Shown in pieces: positions 10,531 through 61,745 of a stretch of DNA of 64,000 nucleotides (within the stretch, counting starts at the first letter, position 1; the number at the start of each line of letters is the position of its first letter). Position numbers and translations under genes: made by a program. Below the pieces are notes generated by a model, which had not been told where the DNA came from, did not search any database, and worked only from the letters and a program-made list of their open reading frames with translations. Source of the stretch: the human T2T-CHM13v2.0 reference genome, Homo sapiens; the NCBI RefSeq assembly GCF_009914755.1, contig NC_060929.1, one strand, 5' to 3'.

Positions 10531-11759
10531 GTAAGTGACCTTGAACCAGTTCCTTCTCAGCTATAAAACAAGGATAAGAATAGAACCTACCTACCCCTGA
10601 GAGTCATGGTGAGGATATGACATCCAACATAGAAAGTCTTAGCGCCTATCATGCCTTCATATGGGAGCCCTTTCCAGTTAGGCCAACCTACCCTCCTGTG
10701 CATTGGTAACGGTAGAGGAACTAAAACCCCTGTTTCTTCCTTGCCAACTCAGGTCTCTTCCTGGCGGGCCATGGCTCACCTGAGCCACACTGACATTAGA
10801 GCTCGCAAACCACCTTGGCAGCACTCATTATATGAATCAGTAAACTCCCCTCCTCCCCCAGTCTTATCAGGGGCAAGCCCTTCTTTGGAATTTCTGGAGT
10901 GAAGCGACTCTTGCCAGTGAGCTGGCACCAGGGCTGTGTGTGAATCAGGGTAATGAATTGCAGTTGTCATGGCAGAGCTAAAAAGGCTGATGCAGGAACT
11001 GGAGGTCTCTGGAACTCATTTGTAACTGCTTTGATATCATGTCCCCTCACTCAGTCTTCCCTTTTGCGCTGTTTGAGAGCTGTTTGAGGACCTGCTGATT
11101 TGAGCATGGTGGTGTTGCAGGAAGGGCATTGGCATTTATCATGTCCCACCCAGCGGGGGGTTGGCCATTCACTCAGCAGGTATTTATGGAGTGCCTACTG
11201 TGCTCAGACTCTGTTGCCAGAGCGGAGGATCAGAGCAAAGTCCCTGCTGCAATGGGGTGTGCACGCGGGGGATGGAGACTGGGAAATAGTTAAATAGATA
11301 AATCGCATTATGACTGGGGGTTTGATGTTCTCTAGAGCTCTTTTAGGAAGGTGGAGGGACAGACCTGGTGACACCTGTCGACAGTGGTGGTGCGGACCTA
11401 GATTTGAAGCCGGGAGACCTTGAGGCCTTTAGTAGGATGTTATCAAGAGCCTATTGTGGTGAGGTGGGCTAATTGCTGGGAGTGCAATGGTGATACACAA
11501 TAGAGTCTCCAACTCGTAGAATTTACTACAAATTAGTGAGAGGCACAGCTAGTCAAGGAGCTGTGCAAATATAGTAGAAATACCAGGCTCTCTGAGTCTG
11601 TTTTTCTTCCTCTCCTGTTTCATCTGGACACGTTCAGTCATTTAACAAATATTTGTTGGATAGTGTACCTGTAATATGCCAGGCATTGTTTTGGCACTGG
11701 GGGTTCAGCAGGGATTAAACCAACAAAAATCCTTGTCCTCATGGAGCTTACTTTCAAAT

Positions 11760-11890
11760 GCAGTGTTTGTCAAACTTGAGGAAACATCAGAACCACCTGG
11801 AGGTCTTGTTAAATACTCAGTTTGAGTCAGTGGATCTGGATGGGGCCCAAGAATGTGCATTTCCTGCAGGTCCCCAGATGATGATGCTGG
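11760..11890. mobile_element. MER5-like hAT-Charlie MITE
   Basis: cagtgtttgtcaaactt...catcagaaccacctggaggtcttgttaaa...cccaagaatgtgcatttc resembles MER5A. Confidence 0.65.
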
Positions 11891-15774: not shown

Positions 15775-15939
15775 TAAGCTACTTTAGAGTTGTAAGCCTG
15801 GGGGCTAGGCCTTCCTTTCATTTGCTGAACCTGGTTTGGATTTTATGCACATAATCTACATCTTTGAGACTCCAAGAAAATGGGTTGCAGACACTACCAC
15901 CATATAGATCGCAGCCTGTGGACAGGAACTAATAATTGC

Positions 15940-16170
15940 TAATATTTATTACAACTCTAGGTTGTGCCAAGCTCTGGGCTGTGTGCTTTGAATGCATCGC
16001 CCAGTTTAGTTCTCATAGCAACCCTATGAGGTAAGAACCATCTCCATTCTGCAGATGAGGAAATTGAAGCTTAGAAAGTTGAAAACTTGCCCAAGATTGC
16101 GTAGCTAATAAGTGGCAGAACTGACATGCAAACCCAGTCTGTCTGCCCCCACAGATGCATGTTCTTTACC
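15940..16170 (-). mobile_element. MIR
   Basis: MIR core: aaccctatgaggta...cattctgcagatgaggaaattgaagcttagaaagttgaaaacttgcccaag. Confidence 0.8.
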
Positions 16171-21109: not shown

Positions 21110-21350
21110 AACCAAGATTTTATTGAGTGCAAAGCACAGTTCTAACTGTTTTATATTTATTAGCTCAACTAACCATCATACCAACCTTCTGAGAAAGGTA
21201 CTAATATTGTCGTTATTTAGAGATGAAGACGTGGCGGCACAGGGGGATTGAGTAATTTGCCCAAGGTCGCACAGCTAGAAAGTGGCAAAGCCAGGATTCA
21301 AGCTCAAGTTGTCTGGCTCCAGAGCTTGTGGTCTTAAACTGCCATCTACT
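21110..21350 (-). mobile_element. MIR
   Basis: tttagagatgaagacgtggcggcacagggggattgagtaatttgcccaaggtcgcacagctag...ggattcaagctcaag. Confidence 0.8.
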
Positions 21351-29239: not shown

Positions 29240-29500
29240 GAAAGGCAGTAGAGTGTAACATTCAAGGAACTGATCTTAGAAGCCAAACTCCCAGGTTTTA
29301 ATCCTGTCTGCTCTCCTTACTAACTTGGTGACTTTGAGTCAGTTACAAGACCTCTCTGTGCTTCAGTTTCCCGTCTGTGAAATGGGATAAGTGACCTAAT
29401 CTCATCAGGTTACCAGGATAACTCAGTGAATTAATAGAGATAAGTCCCATAACATGTGTAAGACTCTGTGTGTTTGGTAGGTGCTGGGCATCAGTGCTGT
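29240..29500 (+). mobile_element. MIR
   Basis: gtgactttgagtcagttacaagacctctctgtgcttcagtttcccgtctgtgaaatgggataa. Confidence 0.78.
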
Positions 29501-31169: not shown

Positions 31170-31370
31170 AGAGAAGGGTTGGAAACCCTTCTGGGACTAG
31201 GCAGGCTTTGTGGACCATACCATCTCTGTCTTAACTACTCTGTGGAAGGAAAGCAGCCATAGATAATATATCGACAAACAGGTGTGGCTGTGTCTCAGTA
31301 GAAACCTTATTTGCAGAAACAGGCAATGGATAGATTTGACCTGTGGGTCATGGTTCTCTATCCTTGCTCT
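31170..31370. mobile_element. MER58A-like DNA transposon
   Basis: ggctttgtggaccat...aagcagccatagataatat...gtggctgtgtctcagtagaaaccttatttgcagaaacaggc. Confidence 0.72.
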
Positions 31371-32123
31371 AGACTAAAAGCTTTAAGAGGGCAGGAGCCA
31401 CATTTATCTTGTAAACTGCTTTATCCTCAGCACCTAGCACAAGGCCTGCTACTTAGTAAATACTTGTTAATTTTAATAGAAATAGTGTTTAGCTGCTGGT
31501 AGTAGAGATCAATAATAACAGTGGCTTCAAGATAGATGTTATCTCTTTGTTACATAAGAGAAAAAGAATCAAGAGACAGGTCGGTCTGGACCAGGGTGGT
31601 TTGGTGCCACATTGTCATCAGGGACCCAGATTCTGTATGCTTTTCTACCCCACCATTTTTTGCATGTGGTTTCCATCCTTAAAATCACTTCATAGCCTAA
31701 CAATGCTTCAAAACAATTCTCAAGAAGATTAAGCTGATCGGCCAATAAATTAGGCATCAAAACAAAACTCAACATTCTTGAAAGAAAGAAAACAAAGTTC
31801 AGATGGTCAACAACTTCATATTGACAGTGTCCAGCCAACAGTAGAAAAGGTACTCAGTTTATGAAGAAAGTCAGTCAATAGAAACAGACCTAGAGATGAC
31901 TTTAAAAAATTTCTTCGTTTCTTTAAAAGATAATTGACTGTTTAGATATGTTTAAAGATTTAAAATAAGTCAGTAGAGAAATGGAACTAAAGGAAAATTC
32001 TAGATGAAAATTACAACATCTGATGAAAAATTTGCTAGATGAGTTTAATAGTAGATCAGATGCTGTAAAAAAAAATAAAGACTAGTGAACATGCAGTCAG
32101 GGCAATAGAAAGTATTCAAGTGA

Positions 32124-47990: not shown

Positions 47991-48626
47991 ATGAGGTGCT
48001 GAGAAACGGTCTGGCTATTGTTTAGGGACTGAAGGCCCCAGGGAAGCTGTTGGCCCCTCAGCAGGGGTAAGGACAAATGGGATGACATGACAAGGAGCTT
48101 TTCCAGCTGGGCTCCTGGTAGAAATAAGACTCTAAGAGCAGAGGGATGAGGGTGGGGTTCTGGGACCTGGGGAGGGAGGGAGCTCTTCCTTCCCCCTAGC
48201 TAGTTGCCTTGGGGGAAAGAATGCCAGTGGAGGCGCTGTTGGGGCTGTGAAGGGTGCAGTCATTTGATGTTAAGGAGAATGTCGTGTTTGTTTTTGCCAG
48301 GTGGTTCTGACTTCAAATCAAGGGATCTCTGGGTTTAGGGAACATTGTTGTATATGTGGTGGCTCGGGCAAGGGTGGCTTTCCCTGGTTCTGCCGTTTAC
48401 TAGCCCTGTCACCTTGGGTGAGTTACTTACCCTCTGTAAGCCTCAGTTTCTTCATCTGTAAAGTGGGAAAAATACAGTACTTCCTTCCCTGGGCTGTGAG
48501 GTTGAAATAAGGTACTGTTTGTAACTTAGCAGACTATCCAGCACATAGTCAAGGTGTAATGAGTATTCAGTTACTTACGTAGTCTAGGTAACAAACACTT
48601 GACAGATAATAGCACATTTAAGTTAA

Positions 48627-49710
<1,084 letters not shown>

Positions 49711-52401
49711 AGGGACTATTTTTCTCCTTGTTTTACAAATAAGGACATTGAGGCACAGAAAGTTTAAGTTATTTGCCTGGGTCACACAGCAGATAAGTAA
49801 CAGAGTCATAATTAGAACTCAGGTAGTCTGCCTCCAAAGTCTGTGCTGTTCATCAGTACCTCTCCTGAACGCTTCCTTATAGCAGCTACTGTGCCAGGAG
49901 CCAGAGAGACTGGGGAGAGCAAAGCAGACATGTCCCTGTCCTTGTGAAACTTACAGGGAGACCATGGTGCAATAATCGAAGACACGGGAAATAACTACCA
50001 TGACAGCTGCGTTAAGGATTACAGTCGAGAGTTGCAAGGTTCTGGCAGGTAGACCAATGGGCTATGGGACTTGTCATCATCAGAGTGGCCAGGGAAGGAA
50101 AGCTTCCCTGGAGAGGAGGTGCTTGCTCTAAGATCTGTAGGACATGTAAGTGCTAACCAGGCAGAGATGGAGGAAAGCAGCAGCTTTAAAGGATGCAAGA
50201 CTCGAGGGTGCGGCCAGTATAGTATGCAGGCTTCTGAAGTCAAGCATTTACTCATCTATTACTCAGCACCCCATAGGCACAAGGCTCCATGGATATTGGG
50301 TCCTAGGGACACTGCTAACTGAGAAAAATCTCTCCAGCCCCAGGCAGGAACACATCTTGCTGTCAGAGATCACTGATGTCCCAGTCTGAGAGACCCAAAT
50401 TCCCATCCCTGCCTCTCATTTTCAACATCAAAAGGCTGCTATGCTTTAGATCTAAAACCCAGGATGGCATTTTTCATCTCCTCTCCTCTAGGTAGCTGGC
50501 CTTTCAAATGGGGGAGAATATCATTCCTCTTCAAAGCGGTGCAGGTGTCATTTGCTGATTTAAAAAAAAAAAAAAAGATTTTGGAAAAAGTAAGGCCTGG
50601 GTCACCAGATACACACCTGCCAGGTGTTCAGATGCTGGTCCTTCCCTGGCCCCTTAAGTGAGCCATGAAAAGGACCTGGTGATTCACCCACAGATAACGG
50701 AAGAAAGTTCTGTTACCTCTTGATAGCAGCTTTTGTGTCCACCCCATTTCCCCAGGTGGGCCGAGAGCATTGGTAGCTAATTGTAATCACTCCACACAAT
50801 TAGAGCTGTGCTGCCCCTTCCCCTAGCCAGTGGACTTCGGTACCCAGAGTGAAGCCTGCAGCCTGTGTCAGACACCAGCATGTGTAATGGGAGGAAACAG
50901 CTTCCATGTCCAGAGCGCTGGTTCCAAGGGCATCTTCAGGCACTGAAATTGGCACTGAATAGGCATGGGGAAGTTTCAGTGGAAGTGAATGGGGAGCACT
51001 GGGGGGACTTACTGAAAGACTTTCAGATACAGGGAGTATTTGACACAGCTCACCTCCAACTGGCCTGGTTTTATTCTGAATTGTTTGGAGCAGAGGAAGG
51101 GAGAGGGAAAACATAAAGATCAGGGTAATAGGTTCTAGGAGCTGACGGAGCTGATGGAGCTGAACAGGGTAGGGACCATGGAAGGTAGAGCTATTGCGCA
51201 AAAATTAGGCAGCCTCTAGGCAGGCAGGCACTTGGCTGGATCCAAGTGGCAGTGTTAGGTGCTGTGGGTGAATGCACACCCACAAGTATATGCACATTCC
51301 CTGCCTCCTGGAAGCTCACAGTTCAGCCAGTGATACATGTATAGAAGTTTGAAGCAGTAACATTAGATATGAGGTTGAATTCATGCTGACCGGATTTCTG
51401 TGGACTTCGTGGAGGCCCTGAAGGCTTTGTAGGATCTAGAAAGGCAGAAACAGATGTGGTGGGGGATAGGTTGAAGAGTCGTGGATGACTCACTAAGACA
51501 TTGAGGTGGGAAGGTATGCAGGGACTATACCACACTGTGTGGAGGAGGGGGTTCATGGAAAGGGTAAGAACTCCCAAAGGGTAGATGAAGAGCCATGAAG
51601 ACCCAGCTAAGGAAACCCATGAATGACTGGGATCCACTGGAAAGTCTTGAGCAAAGAACCGGAGGATGCAAGTGCTGCAGAGAACAGACCCCATACTGTG
51701 GACGGATTGAGAGCACAGTGGGGGCCCCTCAAGCTGTTCCACACTCTGGGCAGTAGGGTTTATCCAAGTGCCCACCACCAAGTATCTGGGCACTAGGCAG
51801 GGAGCAAGGGGTGTTTCCAGTTCCAGTGTTAAAAAATTCCATCCAATTTGTAGGTTCCAAGGAAGGATTGGGCTCCCAGAAGCTTGGAGTTCTTGTTTTA
51901 TGACCACCATCCAGCCCTAAGAGCCTGGGGGGTTTGTATGCATTTTCATTGCGCAGATGGACCTCCCAATTTTCTCAACTTTACTTCCCTTTCACATTTG
52001 CACAGACCATATAATCATGGTTTTATAGGTCATAAAGTTCACTGTGCTAGGAGATACAGAAATACTTTCTTGATGACGGGGCCAAACGTTCATTAAGTGC
52101 TTTCATGTGCCCTGCATTTGAATTTATTCATGATAGCTTCAACATTCTGAGTGTTTACTGTGGGGCAGGCACTGTGCTAACTGTGTATTATCTTGTATAC
52201 TTTTCAGGACAAGTGAAAGTGATGACCCCATTTAATAGATGAAGAAAACTGACACTCAAAGAAGGGAAATAACTTGCCCAAGATCACAGAGCTCAGGTTG
52301 GCTGGACTCTAGGACATCCCATGCCTCCACACCATGCTGCTTGTCAGCAGCAGCACGCAGAGCTGGTTGCAAAGGAGGGGCTGACATATATTAAGAGTTG
52401 A

Positions 52402-52692
52402 GGCCGGGCGTGGTGGCTCACGCCTGTAATCCCAACACTTTGGGAGGCCGAGGTGGGCGGATCACAAAGTCAAGAGGTCAAGACCATCCTGACCAACATG
52501 GTGAAACCCCGTCTCTACTAAAAATACAAAAATTAGCTGGGCGTGGTGGCGTGTGCCTGTAATCGCAGCTACTTGGGAGGCTGAGGCATGAGAATCACTT
52601 CAACCCAGGAGGCGGAGGTTGCAGTGAGCTGAGATCATGCCACTGCAGCCTGGGCGACACAGTGAGACTATGTCTCAAAAAAAAAAAAAAAA
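52402..52692 (+). mobile_element. AluSc-like
   Basis: GGCCGGGCGTGGTGGCTCACG...ggtcaagaccatcctg; TSD aagagttga / aaaagttga. Confidence 0.95.
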
Positions 52693-53967
52693 GTTGAACT
52701 TTTGCTTCTGGGATGTTTATGTTTTTTCCTAGTCTTCAGGGGTTCAGGGCTCTCAGATGTCTCCCCCACCATACCTCCACTCAGTCTTCCACTGATGACA
52801 TTTCTTAATAATTCACGTGCTTCCCCCTCGGCTCAGTTACACATTGGAGAACACTGCTGCATCTGAACCACTGTAGCTGACAAGCTATCATGCAGCTCAC
52901 CCAAACAGCAGCTTGCAAGGCCTATCCATTCTGAACATTTGGAATGGAACTCTTCTGATCCTTATTTTCCACCTAGAACAGTCATAATGGGGCAATGGGA
53001 ATGTATTGATTGTCACTGTTTTGCTTGTATACCTTGGACTGTTTCTGCAAAAGGAGATATGTTTGAGTGTTTTAAGGCAGCCTTGCAGATAGCTTCTAAA
53101 AAGAATTCACTGGCCTGAAAAAATGATTCCTAGCCTGCAGAACTTTCATTTGTCTTCCCTGTGCTTGAGAGAGTTGGGTAGCCCACAGGAAAGAACAAGT
53201 GGTGAAAACCTGGCTTCTAATCCTAAAGCTTCCAACAGCGAGTTATGGGGTCTTGGGCACATTCTTTACATTTCAGGCTCGGTTTTCTCATCTGTAGAAT
53301 GTGAGTGTTACTTTTCTCCTCCAGAATTGTCCTGTGGGTCGAGATGAGATAGCAGATGTCATAAGAGCTTTGTAAGCTACAAAGTAGATGTATATGTGTG
53401 GGATAATAGTACACAGTTTCCTGAACTAACTCATGGAGTTCTTGAAGACATCAGATGAAACAGTAGATGGGAAAATTCTGTGAAGGGAAGAAACTCTGAG
53501 CATCTCTGAAGCAGGTGCTCTTGCTCAAGCCTTAGCATTGCGTCTGTCACAGCAGGAAGCAGCGGCTGCTTGACAAAGCAGTGCAGGGGGTTCATATTCC
53601 AAGGGGAGGTTTTATTTAGAAGAGAAATTACTTAAAATAGAAGTCAAACATTTATAGTAAATATTGGGGGGAAAAGATTTGATCAGGCCTTCATTTTGAG
53701 AAATGAAACTAAAAATTTTAAAGTATATTTATACTGTATTTAACAACATACTGCAACCATGCCCCAGTTCTTAGTTTGAACAAAGTGTTGATTTATTTTT
53801 TGTGTAATTATTTGGAGACAATGAGAATAGCAGAAAAGGACATTTTTCTCTTCTCGTTTGACTTTCCCACCAGGCTCATAAGGAAGGTCATTTTTACAAA
53901 ATATTGAAGGTTTTATCTGTTTTCCTGTGGCCTTGTTTAACCCCTTGGTATCACTGAAATCCTTCTC

Positions 53968-54255
<288 letters not shown>

Positions 54256-55136
54256 GAAATCCTTCCCTTTTAAAGGGCCTGTTGTCTCTTCTTCTTTATC
54301 TTAATGGATTTTCTCCTTTTCAGTTGTTACCTGAGTAACTCAGCCATTCCTTGGGTGTGATTGAGTAGTTATTCAACATGACATTCACAAACTTCATGAA
54401 ATCCTGCCTCTTTTAGAATATTAGTGATTTCCCTTGCAGTTGACTTGGATTGTACTTGCATTGCTTTGTCAGATGCTAAGACATCCAGCAGACCCATAAA
54501 GATGTTGACAGTAAATACTGATGGCATGGACTAGACACTAATGTTAAGTGGGGAGCAATATTTGTATAGGCATTGATTTTATTATAAGTACTCAATTCAT
54601 GGGTTAATTTTTTAACTCAGCTCATAGTTTTTATATTTTGATGACTCTTATTTCTCTAAGTGATCATCTAAGTGCAGGAATCAAGATACATATCCAGTCA
54701 TTGACTTTCCCCTGATTAAGAGAGCAAGCTGTGGAGTCAGAGTGGCTGGGTTAGAATCCCAGCTTCTACTTGTACAATCTGTGTGACCCTTGATAAGATA
54801 ATTAAATTATTGGAGTCTCAGTCTTCCCCAGTGCGAGCCTGCGGGGACCCTGTGTGGTGAGAGAGGCTCTGTCCAACACCACCAGGGCAGGGAGAAACAA
54901 CTGGCCCCATTTCATAACAGAATCAGCTGGCCCAGGAGGGACCCCCAAGAGTGTTTGATTGGGATGCCCAGCCCTGGCTCTCCCTCCACCTGAAGCCCAC
55001 CGAGATTAATCGGGTACCTATGTCTGATGTCGAAAGGAAGGAGAAGGGTTTGCTGAGGACTGATCTCAGCAGGTCTGAAGTTAGGCTGAAAATCTGTGTT
55101 TTGCAAGTATAAACACTGTAAGGAGATACAAGATAC

Positions 55137-55958
55137 TTAGGAAAGCAGGGAGCAGCCCAGAGTGCGAGCCCAGTGTCACAGACTCAGAATGATCCAGGAA
55201 CCATACAGGGAAACAATGCCCGCAGAAAACAGCAGCTGCAGATGTATTTCCTCCCCTGCTCAGCTCCTCCTGCCCTGCATGAGCAAGACCCTAAGACCCT
55301 CAAGAGACCCTCAGAAAATCTGTCCAGTGCCCCAACATCAGAATGAAGGCATCTGGGGAACAGGTAGAAACACAGTGCCTGACACACCGATGCCCTTAGT
55401 AGGCGTGCCTGAAATGCTTGTTGAGAAAATAAATGCATGCAGAATACAAGACTCATTTGAATACCTCCTGTTTGACTAGGAGCAGAGGAATTCAGGTGAG
55501 CCATTGTTGAGAAACCTGTATGACTAGTTAGAATTAGTTAAAAAGTAAAAGCCGGGACCTCCCAGGGCCCATGCTTGGTATGCTGTGAGTGAGATTGTTC
55601 TGTAAGTTGGTGGTGGCTTAGAAATGATTGACAGACATGTCTTATTTTTTAATGTGACAATGGATGTTTGGTTCCATGTAAAACAATTAGAGGAGGAGCC
55701 GTTTGGTTGGTGTCAGGCACTGTGTTTCGACCTGTTTCCCAGATGCCTTCATTCTGATGTTGGGGCACTGGACAGATTTTCTGAGGGTCTCTTGAGGGTC
55801 TTAGGGTCTTGCTCATGCAGGGCAGGAAGAGCTGAGCAGGGGAGGAAATACACCTGCAGCTGCTGTTTTCTGCAGGCATTGTTTCCCTGGATGGTTCCTG
55901 GATCATTCTGAGTCTGTGACACTGGGCTCACACTCTGGGCTGCTCTCCACTTTCCTAA
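55137..55958. repeat. Long inverted repeat: 249-bp arms (55137-55385 and 55710-55958), ~96% identical, 324-bp spacer
   Basis: Manual alignment of the left arm with the reverse complement of the right arm: no gaps, 10 substitutions. Mirror ORFs appear in the track (55162+ vs 55649-; 55184- vs 55624+). Confidence 0.97.
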
Positions 55959-57769
55959 TAGGGTCCTTGGATGTCACCCCCAGACGTTGGCAATGTCCCC
56001 AGCCGACTGAGTGACAAGGGTCCTCCTCAGAGGCTAAAGCCAGCATCTCTCCAGTTCAGTTGCCCTGACTGTAGATGGGTGCTGTGTCCTGGGGCCTGGG
56101 ATGCCCTGAGTTCTCGAGTTAACCGCTGTCAGTCATGTGCCCTCCAGGGCAGACCTCAAGAAGGAGGCAGTTCCAGGGATACTGCTTATTCAGCTCACCA
56201 GGCTCGCAAGGGTCTCTTCCCTACTTCCGATCCACCTTCAGTTGATCACCCTGGCCTTGCCTGGAGAGGGAATTTGAAATTCTGTGCCCTAATCCTGACT
56301 GCTTCTCTAGGATTTCTTTGGACCTTTCGTTGAGATGCTGATATTGAAGAAAAGGTCGTGTGAAGTCCATGCTCACCCTGTTAAGAAGTGTTTGTGGGTC
56401 CCCTGCTAAAGCAGAACTGAAACCCTGTTTCTGTCATTCTGTCAGCTCGTGGCCTCAACTGGGCACAGCGCTTGGGTTCCCTCTTGTACCCTCCCTCTTG
56501 GTGTAAGGGATGGCCCTGAAGAAGGTGAAGAGCAATCTATGTGATGATCTATTTCATTTATTAGCCCGAGTGAAATTGGAGGCCTCTTTTCTTTTACAGA
56601 GTCATTGTCGAGCAAGGTCAGTCCAAAAAAAAAATCCCTATATATTTATGATTATGTATCAAGAATGATTCTGTCCCCTGGGTATACTGCAGTGCTCTAA
56701 ACAGTCCTGATCGCTGCCCTTGCAGAGGTCACTATCTCCAGAGAAAGAATGTAAGTCATTGTGAAGAGCTGGGAAGGAGAAGCAGATGGGCTGTGGGCTT
56801 ATCAAGCTGGGATCTGCCCTGTTGGAAGGGTCAGAGGAGTCATGCTCAGGAGATGGCAGTGTGACTATTAGAGATTTCTGCTATGATAACAGAGTATTGA
56901 GCACCTGTTGTATGCAAGCACTGTGCAAACACCTGGCATACCTGAGCTCCTTTATTCCCGAGATGGGTGTTACTGGCAGCCCCATTTGACAGGTTGGGGG
57001 ATGTGATGTGCACCGTTTCCTGAAGGTGGCCAAGAGAAGTGATGTGCACCGGCCACACAGCTGGCAAGTGGCAGAGCTGGTTCCTGAGCTCAGGGGACGT
57101 GACTGTGATGTGTGTGCACGGGTGTGTGCACAGGCTCAGGTAGGGTGAAGCTCAGGGAGACCCAAGCCCTCACCCTCACCCTCTCTACTGTTTTCCTGCC
57201 AAGGAGGGGCACATCCTCAGGATGTTTGCAGGCTTTATTCTGCCTGGGCAGTGACCCAGGCTCCTTTAATCCACAGCCGGATGGGAAGAGCTGCTGGCAG
57301 AGGGAAGGGCCACACATCATTGTCCCTCTCCCTGAAGCATACCTCTCAAGAAGTTCCGGGGTGGGGTGGAAGCTTGGCTGTGAGCACAGGCCTCCCTTTA
57401 TCCCACCTTGACCTCAGGTGGGCCAGAGGAGAGCCACACACATTTGCCAGCTGGGGGTGCGGCCATCACAAACAAGGACTTCTCCAAGGAGGAAATACAA
57501 AGGTGCCATCCGGAAAAGATCAAGGAGTAGTTGTCCAGGCAGGGTCTGCTGGAGAAATACAAAGAAAGAAATTATCAGCCTAGGAAAGGGCCCTAGCAGA
57601 GCCATCCTGAAGGTAGCCCAGAAGGAATTTGATTGGGGTGGGGCCAGGGGTATCCAGCCCCCACACTGCAGCCTGGGATCTTTGCTTGAGGGTGTGAGAA
57701 GAAAGGGGTTTCCCTTCTGATGGAAAAGTTCCTGAGTGGTCTGAAAATTCCAAAGCTAACACATGTCAG

Positions 57770-57970
57770 CTGCTTTCAATATGCTAGACATAATGCCTAC
57801 TGCTGTACACACGTCATCCTATAAACCTCCCCACAGCTCTGTGAGGTGGGGATGATTGTTATCCCCATTTTACATAGGAGGAAACTGAGGCACAGCAAGG
57901 TTAATACGCCCGAGATTCAAGAGCTGGCAGGTGACAGAGCGAGTTGTTGAATGGTCATGGCCGAGTCCCT
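57770..57970 (-). mobile_element. MIR
   Basis: ctgtgaggtggggatgattgttatccccattttacataggaggaaactgaggcacagcaaggttaa. Confidence 0.8.
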
Positions 57971-58899
57971 TCTGTTCCCTGTGCGTCAATTTCCCCATCT
58001 CCACAATGAGATGACCAGACACAGTGATTTCTAAAAGTCCTTTCATTACCGAATTCCCATGATTGTGTCCCAGAGACCTGTAAGGTCATTCAGCCATGCA
58101 GGTGTAGGCCTCTTGGGCACGTGGGTTTCTGACACCCCCACCCAGTTCTCTTCCCACCCCTCTGACACGCCTGTTTCTCAGCAAGCCTTCTGAAATCTTT
58201 TGTATATGACACCCCCCACCTTATAACTATAGAAAGGTTTTGTTTGTTTTTTAATGCTTTCCAGCTTTGGGCTCAGGAAATCCCTTCTTTTCTTCCCTGT
58301 AAAAGATTTCTTCCTTCCATCCCACTCTCCAGGGCCTCATCCTGGCCAAGCAGCCTCACCCTCTCCTTCAGCACAGCCCTGCAGGCTGGCTCTGTCACCT
58401 TCTCATATTTACTGAGCATCTGTAACAAGGACTTGCTCAAGGGCACACAGTCGGTAAGTGGCCACGTCAAGCTGGTACCTACATTGTGGTCTGCTGTTCA
58501 GCACACAGTAGGTCCTCAGGAGTGCTTCCTTCTTTCTCCGTCATTTGACTGGCTCTCCTTCCCTTTGCTTCTGTTTGCAGATAGAAGGTAGAGTGGGGCT
58601 GGGAGTGGGGTTGGCTGCCGTGGGCCACTGGGCGGGAGGCTCACAGCCCTTCCTGTTTTTGGAAGAATTGGTCTGGAGCAGCAGCTCCACCAACCCCAGT
58701 TCTGTGACCAACAGCGGCCTCTTAAGTAACCGTTTGTTTCCTCAAAATAACACTCCACCTTTCACCTAGCAAGAAGGATGGTTATCTGCATGGGTGCCAT
58801 CTTTCTGGGCCCTCCAAATGCGGACAGCTCACCTTTGCTGCTAAAAACACCTGCTTCACCTCCCAGCTCCAGGTCATTCCTCTGAGATCTTATGGAAAA

Positions 58900-60019: not shown

Positions 60020-61427
60020 TCCCAGCTAGATAGCCCATGGGAAGGCAATGAGCCTAGGGTCCAATCTCTCTTAGTTAACAAAGGAGCCTGGCAGAGGTTG
60101 GAGTAGTTAAAGACACAGTAGCTCCAGACTGTAGACTCTACTCTTGATTGAATCTGAAAAGCTGAAGGGTAATTGAAAAGGGAATAGCATTTTCCCTGAG
60201 AGATCCAATGTTTTTTCCTGCCTTGCAAGTGCACCTCATAAAGTCATCCTGTGTGCCACCAAAAGGCATCATATACACATGGGAAATGTATAATACTCAT
60301 GGAATCCAGAAATGAATCCAACTCGGACCTTGTCTCGAAGCGACTTCCACTCTAGGAGGCGAGAGAAGAGCAGGATACAAATGAAAGTGCCATGAGTTAG
60401 GATATGATGGAAGGAGGGGTGCAGGTGAAGGGCTGTGGGAGATGAGAAGAGGTTGCTCTCCTGGGGCCTGGCAAAGGCTGCAGGTGGGAGACAGTGTTTG
60501 CAGCAGGCCTGGATGCCTGCGGAGAATTTGACTTCCAGAGAAAGGGATTGGGCAGCCCAGGCAAAGAGGAAACGAGAAAGACCAGGGAGGTTGGAGGTGG
60601 GTGGAGAACAGCAACCAGTCCTGTCACAGCCAGGCTGTTTCTGCACCACGTGCCGCCTGCCCACTCTGGGTGTCTTGTTTATCCTTGGATCCTAATGGTG
60701 GTGTTGAGTAGACTCCACTCAGAACTGAGACGGGTGTCTGCCTAGGGACTGGCTGCTTCTCTGCACCCTCTCCACCCAAGACACACTTGTTTGCCCCACG
60801 TTCTCTGTGCAGTAACCCTCCCGTGGCAGCTGATGTGGTAGAAGCAGCAGATTCCGATCTCAGAGCTGCCCTTTGCTAGCTGTAGGACCTGCTGTCCCGT
60901 TCCTTAGAGGTCACTGAGCACCTACCTCAAAGGGCGGTCAGGAGCATCCAATGAGACAAGGCCTGGCCCATGGCAAGAGCTCAATTAACATTAACACGCA
61001 CGAGTCTTGAATACTGTCCACATGTGCTTATTGAGGCCCTCTTGGCTTCTCAAGCTTTCTGAGCCTTAGTGTCATCATCTGAAAAATGGGATGTCCGTAT
61101 CAGGTGGTCAAATAATGTTTACAAAGTGAGAACCACTTAGTATGTCTTTGGCAAATATTTCCTTTGCCTGGGTGGCTTCTGCTGTGCTTCAGGTTTATCC
61201 AGTAATTATTCAAATATCATTCATTGAGCTCTGCACTTTTTCCTGATACTCCACAAAGTATTGATATTGTTGTTCCTGTTTTATTAATTGCATGGTGCAT
61301 GGTGATTAGGAGCTTAGAACCCTGAACCTATTTGCCTGGATTCAAATCCCAGCTCTGCCACCTTCCAGCTGCAGGACCTAAGGCATGCGACTTGACCTCT
61401 CCATGCCTTAGTTTTCATCTGAAATGA

Positions 61428-61745
<318 letters not shown>

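What the first reader, a model, noticed from the sequence alone, without database searches (positions are those of the whole stretch)
55137..55958. Non-Alu ~250-bp inverted repeat: a predicted long dsRNA hairpin in WWC1 pre-mRNA
Seen: 55137-55385 is the reverse complement of 55710-55958 with no indels and 10 substitutions in 249 bp (~96%), around a 324-nt loop. The arms are not Alu and lack the short TIR plus TSD layout of a MITE. On the sense RNA the mismatches give 6 A.C, 2 G.U and 2 A.G pairs; on the antisense strand the six A.C become G.U wobbles. Established: long near-perfect intramolecular duplexes are substrates for ADAR (A opposite C is a preferred editing context) and for Dicer, PKR and MDA5. 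Inference: this duplex is more perfect than typical Alu-Alu pairs and could be an edited or endo-siRNA-producing hairpin, or could influence co-transcriptional processing of this very long intron.
Basis: partly seen in the sequence, partly recalled or inferred. Interest (0 to 1): 0.8.

Follow-up and report, generated by a model that had tools for sequence, protein, structure and literature searches.

The report
Single-copy inverted duplication in WWC1 intron
A 249-base stretch deep in the first intron of the human WWC1 gene was copied backwards a few hundred bases downstream some tens of millions of years ago, so the intron RNA should fold into a long hairpin, but nothing here shows that the hairpin does anything.

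Summary
Arms 55137-55385 and 55710-55958 are 249 nt and 96.0% complementary, with 10 substitutions, no indels and a 324-nt spacer. The sense-RNA mismatches are 6 A.C, 2 G.U and 2 A.G. Both strands fold into the hairpin (z -37.6 and -47.9).

It is not Alu, not a MITE and not multi-copy. The arm occurs only twice in the T2T genome. There is no target-site duplication, no Rfam family and no Pfam match above cut-off.

New here is the polarity of the duplication. The inner end of the left arm lies in the 3' tail of an old dispersed SINE, and that tail runs on uninterrupted into the spacer. The right arm carries only the truncated 17 nt. So left arm plus spacer is the ancestral sequence and the right arm is the inverted copy.

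The differences look neutral (8 transitions, 2 transversions, 3 at CpG; K2P 0.042). That suggests roughly 20 Myr, range about 10-40.

It belongs to the known class of intronic inverted duplicated sequences (PMC7006430). ADAR editing is likely but untested, and small RNAs or sensor activation are unlikely this deep in an intron. It is real but probably inert, and of modest interest.

The parts
55137..55385 (+). Left arm, inferred to be the ancestral (source) copy of the duplicated segment. Composition is 78 A, 74 C, 59 G and 38 T.
   Evidence: It is continuous with the spacer through a dispersed-SINE tail.
55369..55442 (+). 3' tail fragment of an old dispersed SINE (MIR-type; the family name is recalled, not given by a tool). 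It spans the left-arm/spacer boundary at 55385/55386 and has a 10-nt insertion at 55387-55396 relative to the family profile.
   Evidence: The 18-mer 55369-55386 occurs 4328 times in the genome at <=2 mismatches, against 105 for the reversed control. A profile of 29 copies aligns 55369-55442 at 21.9 bits, E 1.4e-6 in the window. A seed-free tail profile of 49 copies gives 6.4 bits, reached by 4 of 5000 random 90-mers.
55386..55709 (+). 324-nt spacer, which forms the loop of the predicted hairpin. It is 41.7% G+C and unique in the genome.
55710..55958 (-). Right arm, inferred to be the derived inverted copy. It carries only the first 17 nt of the SINE tail, cut off at the arm end.
   Evidence: The full profile matches only 17 nt at 7.9 bits. 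The tail profile finds nothing in the 90 nt adjoining it.

Best explanation
This is a single-copy, lineage-specific local inverted duplication. The 249-bp segment 55137-55385 of WWC1 intron 1 was copied in reverse orientation and joined 324 bp downstream. The copy is now 55710-55958. The inner end of the source segment lies inside the 3' tail of an old SINE. The most likely mechanism (inferred) is a replication template switch, or fold-back priming of a broken 3' end, with end-joining-type junctions. The two copies have since diverged by about 4% in a neutral pattern, which suggests an age of roughly 20 Myr (about 10-40), or older if gene conversion has homogenised them. When intron 1 is transcribed, the arms are only 324 nt apart and have no competing partner in the genome. 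They should therefore pair co-transcriptionally into a 249-bp imperfect duplex whose longest perfect run is 90 bp. Such a duplex is a textbook substrate for promiscuous nuclear ADAR editing (inferred, not shown), after which it is degraded with the intron. It is most likely a neutral passenger without a function of its own.
For: Shown:
- The repeat itself and its fold.
- Uniqueness. A search of the 3.1-Gb assembly with the arm finds only the two arms (2 candidates, 2 scored). A search with 54400-56700 at E<=10 finds only the region itself, the two arm cross-matches, and one 77-nt 78% match elsewhere for 54729-54805.
- Polarity. The 18-mer at the inner end of the left arm belongs to a dispersed family: 4328 matches against 105 for the control. 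The family profile runs across 55385/55386 into the spacer (21.9 bits), while the right arm keeps only 17 nt (7.9 bits). The seed-free tail profile scores 4.5 bits with 29 copies, a score that 10 of 2000 random 90-mers reach. With 49 copies it scores 6.4 bits, which 4 of 5000 reach. It finds no hit beside the right arm in either test.
- Neutral decay: 8 transitions and 2 transversions, 3 of the 10 in CpG context, K2P 0.0416.
- No TSD and no microhomology at the junctions.
- No RNA family and no protein family above cut-off.

From print:
- Inverted duplicated sequences are common in pre-mRNA, and long, nearly perfect ones are rare and often edited (PMC7006430; abstract and passages).
- Template switching creates inverted repeats and hairpins in primate genomes (PMC5453318 and 10.1101/2023.04.19.537475; search listing and abstract starts only).
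Against: No outgroup genome could be consulted. The polarity therefore rests on one SINE fragment of about 75 nt, and the seed-free support is modest (6.4 bits). The whole-window search with the seed-free 49-copy profile gives only E 0.11 for 55396-55456, and the 29-copy one gave no hit there at E<=1. The 10-nt insertion in the SINE tail begins 1-2 nt from the arm boundary. That could mean this junction was also touched by the event. The genome search is word-based and skips very common words, so a very old, strongly diverged family containing the arm cannot be excluded. The age depends on an assumed rate and on the absence of gene conversion. Editing and RNA folding in vivo were not observed.
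Confidence: 0.75

Rival explanations
1. The unit is a copy of a palindromic DNA transposon or MITE-like element whose long arms are a family feature.
For: Two-fold symmetric elements with a central loop exist among DNA transposons (general knowledge). The genome search used is not maximally sensitive (caveats printed).
Against: Only 2 places in the 3.1-Gb genome match the arm, namely the arms themselves. Nothing else matches arms or spacer at E<=10. There is no flanking target-site duplication. The arms are 249 nt rather than short terminal repeats. A different, unrelated dispersed repeat (the SINE tail) crosses the arm/spacer boundary, which a transposon's own internal boundary would not show. 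No transposase-like ORF is present.
Confidence: 0.03
2. The hairpin is a functional RNA element kept by selection. It could be a hyper-edited ADAR sponge, a source of endo-siRNAs or miRNA-like RNAs, or a structure that affects processing or transcription of the long WWC1 intron 1.
For: The duplex is exceptionally stable. It is the only 96% pair among 64 inverted pairs in the window. It has survived perhaps 20 Myr without indels. De novo miRNAs from template-switch hairpins have been proposed (10.1101/2023.04.19.537475, abstract start only).
Against: No Rfam family, miRNA included, matches at E<=1. The substitution pattern is what neutral decay gives, with 3 of 10 differences in CpG context. 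On the sense strand, transitions produced 6 disruptive A.C against 2 tolerated G.U, so there is no sign of pairing-preserving selection. Ten hits in 249 bp with no indel is unremarkable for 4% divergence. No paper in the library links WWC1 to an inverted repeat or to dsRNA in this sense: the two searches returned 3 and 8 papers and none is relevant. Human somatic Dicer handles long dsRNA poorly (general knowledge).
Confidence: 0.07
3. The polarity is reversed: the right arm with its right flank is ancestral and the left arm is the inserted copy.
For: The 10-nt insertion in the SINE tail begins right at the left-arm boundary. This could be read as filler at a new junction.
Against: A new junction would then have had to restore, by chance, the correct order and orientation of the SINE tail across 55385/55386 (21.9 bits against 7.9 bits). 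The sequence adjoining the right arm's copy of the motif shows no tail similarity.
Confidence: 0.08
4. It is an assembly artefact (a fold-back chimera) in the T2T assembly.
For: Fold-back chimeric reads can create false palindromes (general knowledge).
Against: An artefact would give identical arms. Here there are 10 differences with a transition bias and CpG decay, and a 324-nt unique spacer.
Confidence: 0.01

Closest known systems
Inverted duplicated sequences (IDS) in pre-mRNA, the 'long and nearly perfect dsRNA' class of Barak et al. 2020 (PMC7006430)
   Same: It is an intramolecular reverse-complement match within one pre-mRNA, it is intronic and it is nearly perfect. That paper's supplementary table lists human cases with very similar geometry, for example 326-nt arms about 540 nt apart on chr5.
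   Different: At 249 nt and 95.98% it falls just under the paper's thresholds (>300 bp, >96%) and is not among its 197 listed human structures: 'WWC1' occurs 0 times in the 3 supplementary files. The paper reports that most such structures lie in repetitive sequence (passage), whereas this arm is genome-unique.
Inverted Alu pairs (IRAlus), the main ADAR substrates in human RNA
   Same: Arms of about 250-300 nt lie a few hundred nt apart in an intron and are predicted to form dsRNA that ADAR edits.
   Different: The arms are not Alu and have no other partner in the genome. Identity is 96%, against 67-85.5% for the 63 other inverted pairs in this window.
Template-switch and fold-back inverted duplications (PMC5453318, PMC7954356, 10.1101/2023.04.19.537475; listings and abstract starts only)
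   Same: A nearby segment is copied in reverse orientation, creating a hairpin-forming inverted repeat with a spacer.
   Different: My recollection is that the short-range events described there are tens of bases long. Here the copy is 249 nt at 324 nt distance, and no microhomology is visible at the junctions.
Hairpin-RNA (hpRNA) endo-siRNA loci of Drosophila and mouse oocytes (recalled, no paper read here)
   Same: A long inverted repeat is transcribed as one RNA.
   Different: No small-RNA evidence exists here, no target gene is related to the arms (they are unique in the genome), and the structure lies deep in an intron of a somatic gene.

Membership tests
Intronic inverted duplicated sequence / long nearly perfect dsRNA (PMC7006430) | Reverse-complement self-match within one pre-mRNA | tested here: met
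   Both arms lie inside WWC1 intron 1 according to the annotation supplied with the finding.
Intronic inverted duplicated sequence / long nearly perfect dsRNA (PMC7006430) | 'Long and nearly perfect' subclass: >300 bp and >96% identity | tested here: not met
   249 nt and 95.98%. Not in the paper's table.
MITE / palindromic DNA transposon | Many dispersed copies in the genome | tested here: not met
   Only the two arms match in 3.1 Gb. The search is word-based, so very old copies could be missed.
MITE / palindromic DNA transposon | Target-site duplication flanking the element | tested here: not met
   The longest shared flanking word is 4 nt and is not adjacent to the ends.
Inverted Alu pair | Arms are Alu elements | tested here: not met
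   The unit has no match to the window's ~300-nt repeats. Rfam SRP/Alu-derived hits lie only at 54000-54253.
miRNA or other curated RNA family | Match to an Rfam covariance model | tested here: not met
   No hit within 55000-56100 at E<=1.
ADAR substrate | Stable duplex of tens of base pairs in a transcribed RNA | tested here: met
   Predicted 249-bp duplex with a 90-bp perfect run. Transcription is assumed from the intronic position.
ADAR substrate | Clustered A-to-G mismatches in RNA-seq | not testable with these tools
   No expression or editing data are available.
Endo-siRNA hairpin locus | 21-23-nt small RNAs from both arms | not testable with these tools
   No small-RNA data are available.

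The most novel reading that the evidence does not exclude
A primate-specific hairpin, created in one step by a template switch, acts in cis on WWC1 (KIBRA). As a 249-bp duplex with a 90-bp perfect core it would be hyper-edited and bound by nuclear dsRNA-binding proteins, or cut by Drosha/Dicer into small RNAs. That would alter elongation, splicing kinetics or stability of the long first intron in kidney and brain.
Probability: 0.05. Interest if true: 0.6.

Novelty: new member of a known kind. Interest (0 to 1): 0.27.

Why it matters
Genome-unique, nearly perfect intramolecular duplexes of this length are uncommon in human genes. PMC7006430 counts 197 above slightly higher thresholds. They are the cleanest natural substrates for asking how ADARs and nuclear dsRNA-binding proteins treat non-Alu dsRNA, because reads map uniquely. 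This locus also shows that an old SINE fragment crossing a breakpoint can give the direction of an inverted duplication from one genome alone. Beyond that, nothing suggests a role in WWC1 biology. It is best kept as a well-defined test locus, not as a discovery.

Tried and rejected
- Single-sequence nhmmer of 220-nt tiles across 54900-56200 against the window found no related copy outside the unit. A family profile therefore had to be built from genome copies of the 18-mer.
- The profile of the SINE body upstream of the 18-mer finds 23 hits at E<=1 elsewhere in the window but none in the left arm. The full profile run with --max on 54900-56200 finds only the tail. So most of the arm is not recognisably SINE, and its origin stays unknown.
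- The 29-copy seed-free tail profile gave no hit at 55386-55460 in a whole-window search at E<=1. Only the targeted tests were positive.
- A search for a template of the 10-nt insertion 55387-55396 within 53001-58000, on either strand and with <=1 mismatch, found only the insertion itself.
- Stop-to-stop ORFs of 112, 117, 74 and 69 aa over the arm gave no Pfam family above cut-off. The best were E 0.034 and 0.069, far below gathering scores. The open frames follow from the T-poor composition.
- Literature searches: WWC1 with 'inverted repeat' returned 3 papers, none relevant. WWC1 with 'dsRNA' returned 8 papers (7 listed), none relevant in the listing. In the search on WWC1, 'A-to-I' and 'hyper-edit', none of the 15 listed papers contains WWC1. 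'WWC1' occurs 0 times in the main text of PMC11838218 and of PMC13251931.
bioRxiv supplements, such as the dsRNAscan tables that may list this locus, could not be seen.

Full report
**1. The observation**

The sequence at 54900-56200 and the repeat finder show one large inverted pair. The arms are 55137-55385 and 55710-55958, 249 nt each and 96% complementary, with 324 nt between them. My base-by-base comparison gives 10 substitutions and no indels. On the antisense RNA they become 6 G.U and 4 non-pairs.

Complementarity ends abruptly at all four ends: the next 60 positions outward and inward match at chance level. The pair has a blastn E-value of 7e-115 within the window.

Folded as RNA, 55100-56000 gives -613.3 kcal/mol, against -288.8 +/- 8.6 for 20 shuffles (z -37.6). 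The minus strand gives -597.1 against -276.5 +/- 6.7 (z -47.9). Watson-Crick runs between mismatches are 9, 0, 1, 15, 39, 15, 20, 24, 90, 7 and 19 bp.

**2. What it is not**

- **Not Alu.** The 1.1-kb unit has no match to any other part of the window beyond 12-28-nt chance words. The window's ~300-nt dispersed repeats, by contrast, match one another freely. Rfam's Alu-related hits (Metazoa_SRP, mir-1268, mir-3135, all below gathering score) lie only at 54000-54253.
- **Not a known RNA family.** Nothing in 55000-56100 matches at E<=1.
- **Not a multi-copy element.** A search of the window's own 3.1-Gb assembly with the left arm returned only the two arms (2 candidates, 2 scored). A search with 54400-56700 at E<=10 returned the region itself, the two arm cross-matches and a single 77-nt, 78% match on another chromosome for 54729-54805, outside the unit. 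The tool warns that it works from words and skips very common ones, so a very old and diverged family cannot be formally excluded. The 78% hit shows it does reach moderately diverged repeats.
- **No target-site duplication.** The longest word shared by the 40 nt on either side is 4 nt and not adjacent to the ends.
- **No coding signal.** Several frames are open across the arm. This follows from its T-poor composition, 38 T in 249 nt. Pfam finds nothing above its cut-offs; the best E-values are 0.034 and 0.069.
- **Not an assembly artefact.** An artefact would give identical arms, not ten differences with a transition bias.

**3. Which arm is the copy**

The last bases of the left arm looked to me like the tail of a MIR-type SINE. 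That name comes from memory, so I tested it only with data from the tools.

- **The seed belongs to a dispersed family.** The 18-mer 55369-55386 occurs 4328 times in the genome at up to 2 mismatches, against 105 for the reversed control pattern.
- **The family profile crosses the boundary.** I aligned the 29 exact copies other than this locus with their flanks and built a profile. In the 64-kb window this profile finds ten hits at E<=0.01. One of them is 55369-55442 (21.9 bits, E 1.4e-6). That alignment runs across the left-arm/spacer boundary at 55385/55386 and on for about 55 nt into the spacer, with a 10-nt insertion at 55387-55396. On the right arm the profile matches only the 17 nt that lie inside the arm (7.9 bits), and nothing beyond.
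- **Seed-free tests.** Because the seed itself was in the profile, I repeated the test with profiles built only from what follows the 18-mer. With 29 copies, the 90 nt after the left-arm motif score 4.5 bits, a value that 10 of 2000 random 90-mers of the window reach. The 90 nt adjoining the right-arm motif give no hit. With 49 copies (20 more fetched), the left side scores 6.4 bits. Only 4 of 5000 random 90-mers reach that, all four at about 14 bits, and they probably overlap the profile's one other window hit at 11166-11201. The right side again gives nothing.
- **Weaker whole-window results.** In a whole-window search the 29-copy tail profile did not find the locus at E<=1. The 49-copy one finds 55396-55456 only at E 0.11. 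The support is therefore real but modest.

My reading is that left arm and spacer were contiguous before the event, and that the right arm is an inverted copy whose inner breakpoint cut through the SINE tail.

**4. Age and mode of change**

The ten differences are 8 transitions and 2 transversions. Three lie in a CpG context in one arm or the other. At both CpG transitions the left arm keeps the CpG.

The Kimura two-parameter distance is 0.0416. The Poisson 95% interval on ten differences is 4.8-18.4, or 1.9-7.4%. If the arms diverge at twice a rate of 1e-9 per site per year (an assumption), the event is about 21 Myr old. Rates between 0.5e-9 and 2.2e-9 give 42 to 9 Myr. Gene conversion between the arms would make it look younger than it is.

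Three differences sit within 4 nt (55146, 55147, 55149) and may be a single event. On the sense strand the transitions gave 6 disruptive A.C and 2 tolerated G.U. This is not significantly skewed, but it shows no sign of selection to keep sense-strand pairing.

**5. How it arose (inferred)**

Appending the reverse complement of 55385 to 55137 after position 55709 is what a nascent 3' end would produce if it switched to the complementary template, or folded back on itself, 324 nt upstream, copied 249 nt and was then rejoined.

I see no microhomology at either new junction. That fits end-joining, or else erosion over time. The 10-nt insertion next to the boundary is unexplained and has no template within 53001-58000.

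Template switching as a source of inverted repeats and hairpins in primate genomes is described in PMC5453318, PMC7954356 and 10.1101/2023.04.19.537475. I saw only the search listing and the starts of their abstracts.

**6. What it probably does**

The arms are 324 nt apart and have no other partner in the genome, so the intron RNA should form the duplex as it is made. A 249-bp duplex with a 90-bp perfect core is a standard substrate for promiscuous A-to-I editing by nuclear ADARs, and A opposite C is a favoured context (established knowledge, not tested here). The sense RNA carries 78 A in the left arm and 42 in the right.

The structure lies about 54 kb into intron 1 and will be removed and degraded with it. 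The following points bear on its likely fate:

- PMC7006430 (abstract and passages read) reports that inverted duplicated sequences are depleted from mRNA but much less from pre-mRNA.
- The same paper reports that long, nearly perfect ones are rare: 197 in human RefSeq transcripts above 300 bp and 96%.
- It also reports that most of these are barely expressed and that some are heavily edited.
- This locus falls just under those thresholds and is not in its table: 'WWC1' occurs 0 times in the 3 supplementary files. The table does list cases of very similar geometry.
- A 2026 preprint (PMC13251931, passages read) finds that the dsRNAs recovered with MDA5 filaments are mostly inverted Alus in 3' UTRs.

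Cytoplasmic sensing and Dicer processing are therefore unlikely here. I found no paper that connects WWC1 with an inverted repeat, dsRNA or hyper-editing. 'WWC1' is also absent from the main text of PMC11838218 and of PMC13251931.

**7. Verdict**

The feature is real, unique in the genome, and much more perfect than the 63 other inverted pairs in the window, which are 67-85.5% identical. It is a new member of a known kind: an intronic inverted duplication predicted to give a long hairpin.

The origin and the polarity of the duplication are reasonably supported from this one genome. Editing is a sound expectation but was not shown. A function is unsupported. What remains open can be settled by alignment to other primates and by a look at editing and small-RNA data, neither of which was available here.

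Noticed in passing
window 55387-55396: A 10-nt insertion relative to the SINE-family profile begins 1-2 nt from the left-arm boundary. No template for it exists within 53001-58000. It could be a coincidence or a trace of the duplication event.
   Followed up: partly
window 55146-55149: Three of the ten arm differences fall within 4 nt near the outer end of the duplex. This may be one complex mutation.
   Followed up: no
window 55493-55501: The spacer contains a consensus-like 5' splice-site string (CAG followed by GTGAGC) on the sense strand, read directly. It was not tested and could be chance.
   Followed up: no
window 53969-54261: One of the ~300-nt dispersed repeats lies just upstream. It gives sub-threshold Rfam matches to Metazoa_SRP, mir-1268 and mir-3135 and pairs in inverted orientation with 52395-52692 at 76.7%.
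   Followed up: no
window 49703-49908, 52122-52306, 29278-29392, 15935-16124, 48384-48477, 11517-11794, 21213-21311, 31353-31488, 61338-61432: Nine further hits of the same old SINE-family profile at E<=0.01. They served as a positive control for the profile.
   Followed up: partly
window 54729-54805: A 77-nt stretch upstream of the unit matches one place on another chromosome at 78%. It overlaps a weak hit of the SINE-body profile at 54764-54830, E 0.17. It is probably another old repeat fragment.
   Followed up: no
window 55137-55385: The arm is strongly T-poor on the + strand (38 T of 249), which leaves stop-free frames of 112 and 117 codons. No protein family matches above cut-off. The origin of most of the arm sequence is unknown.
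   Followed up: partly
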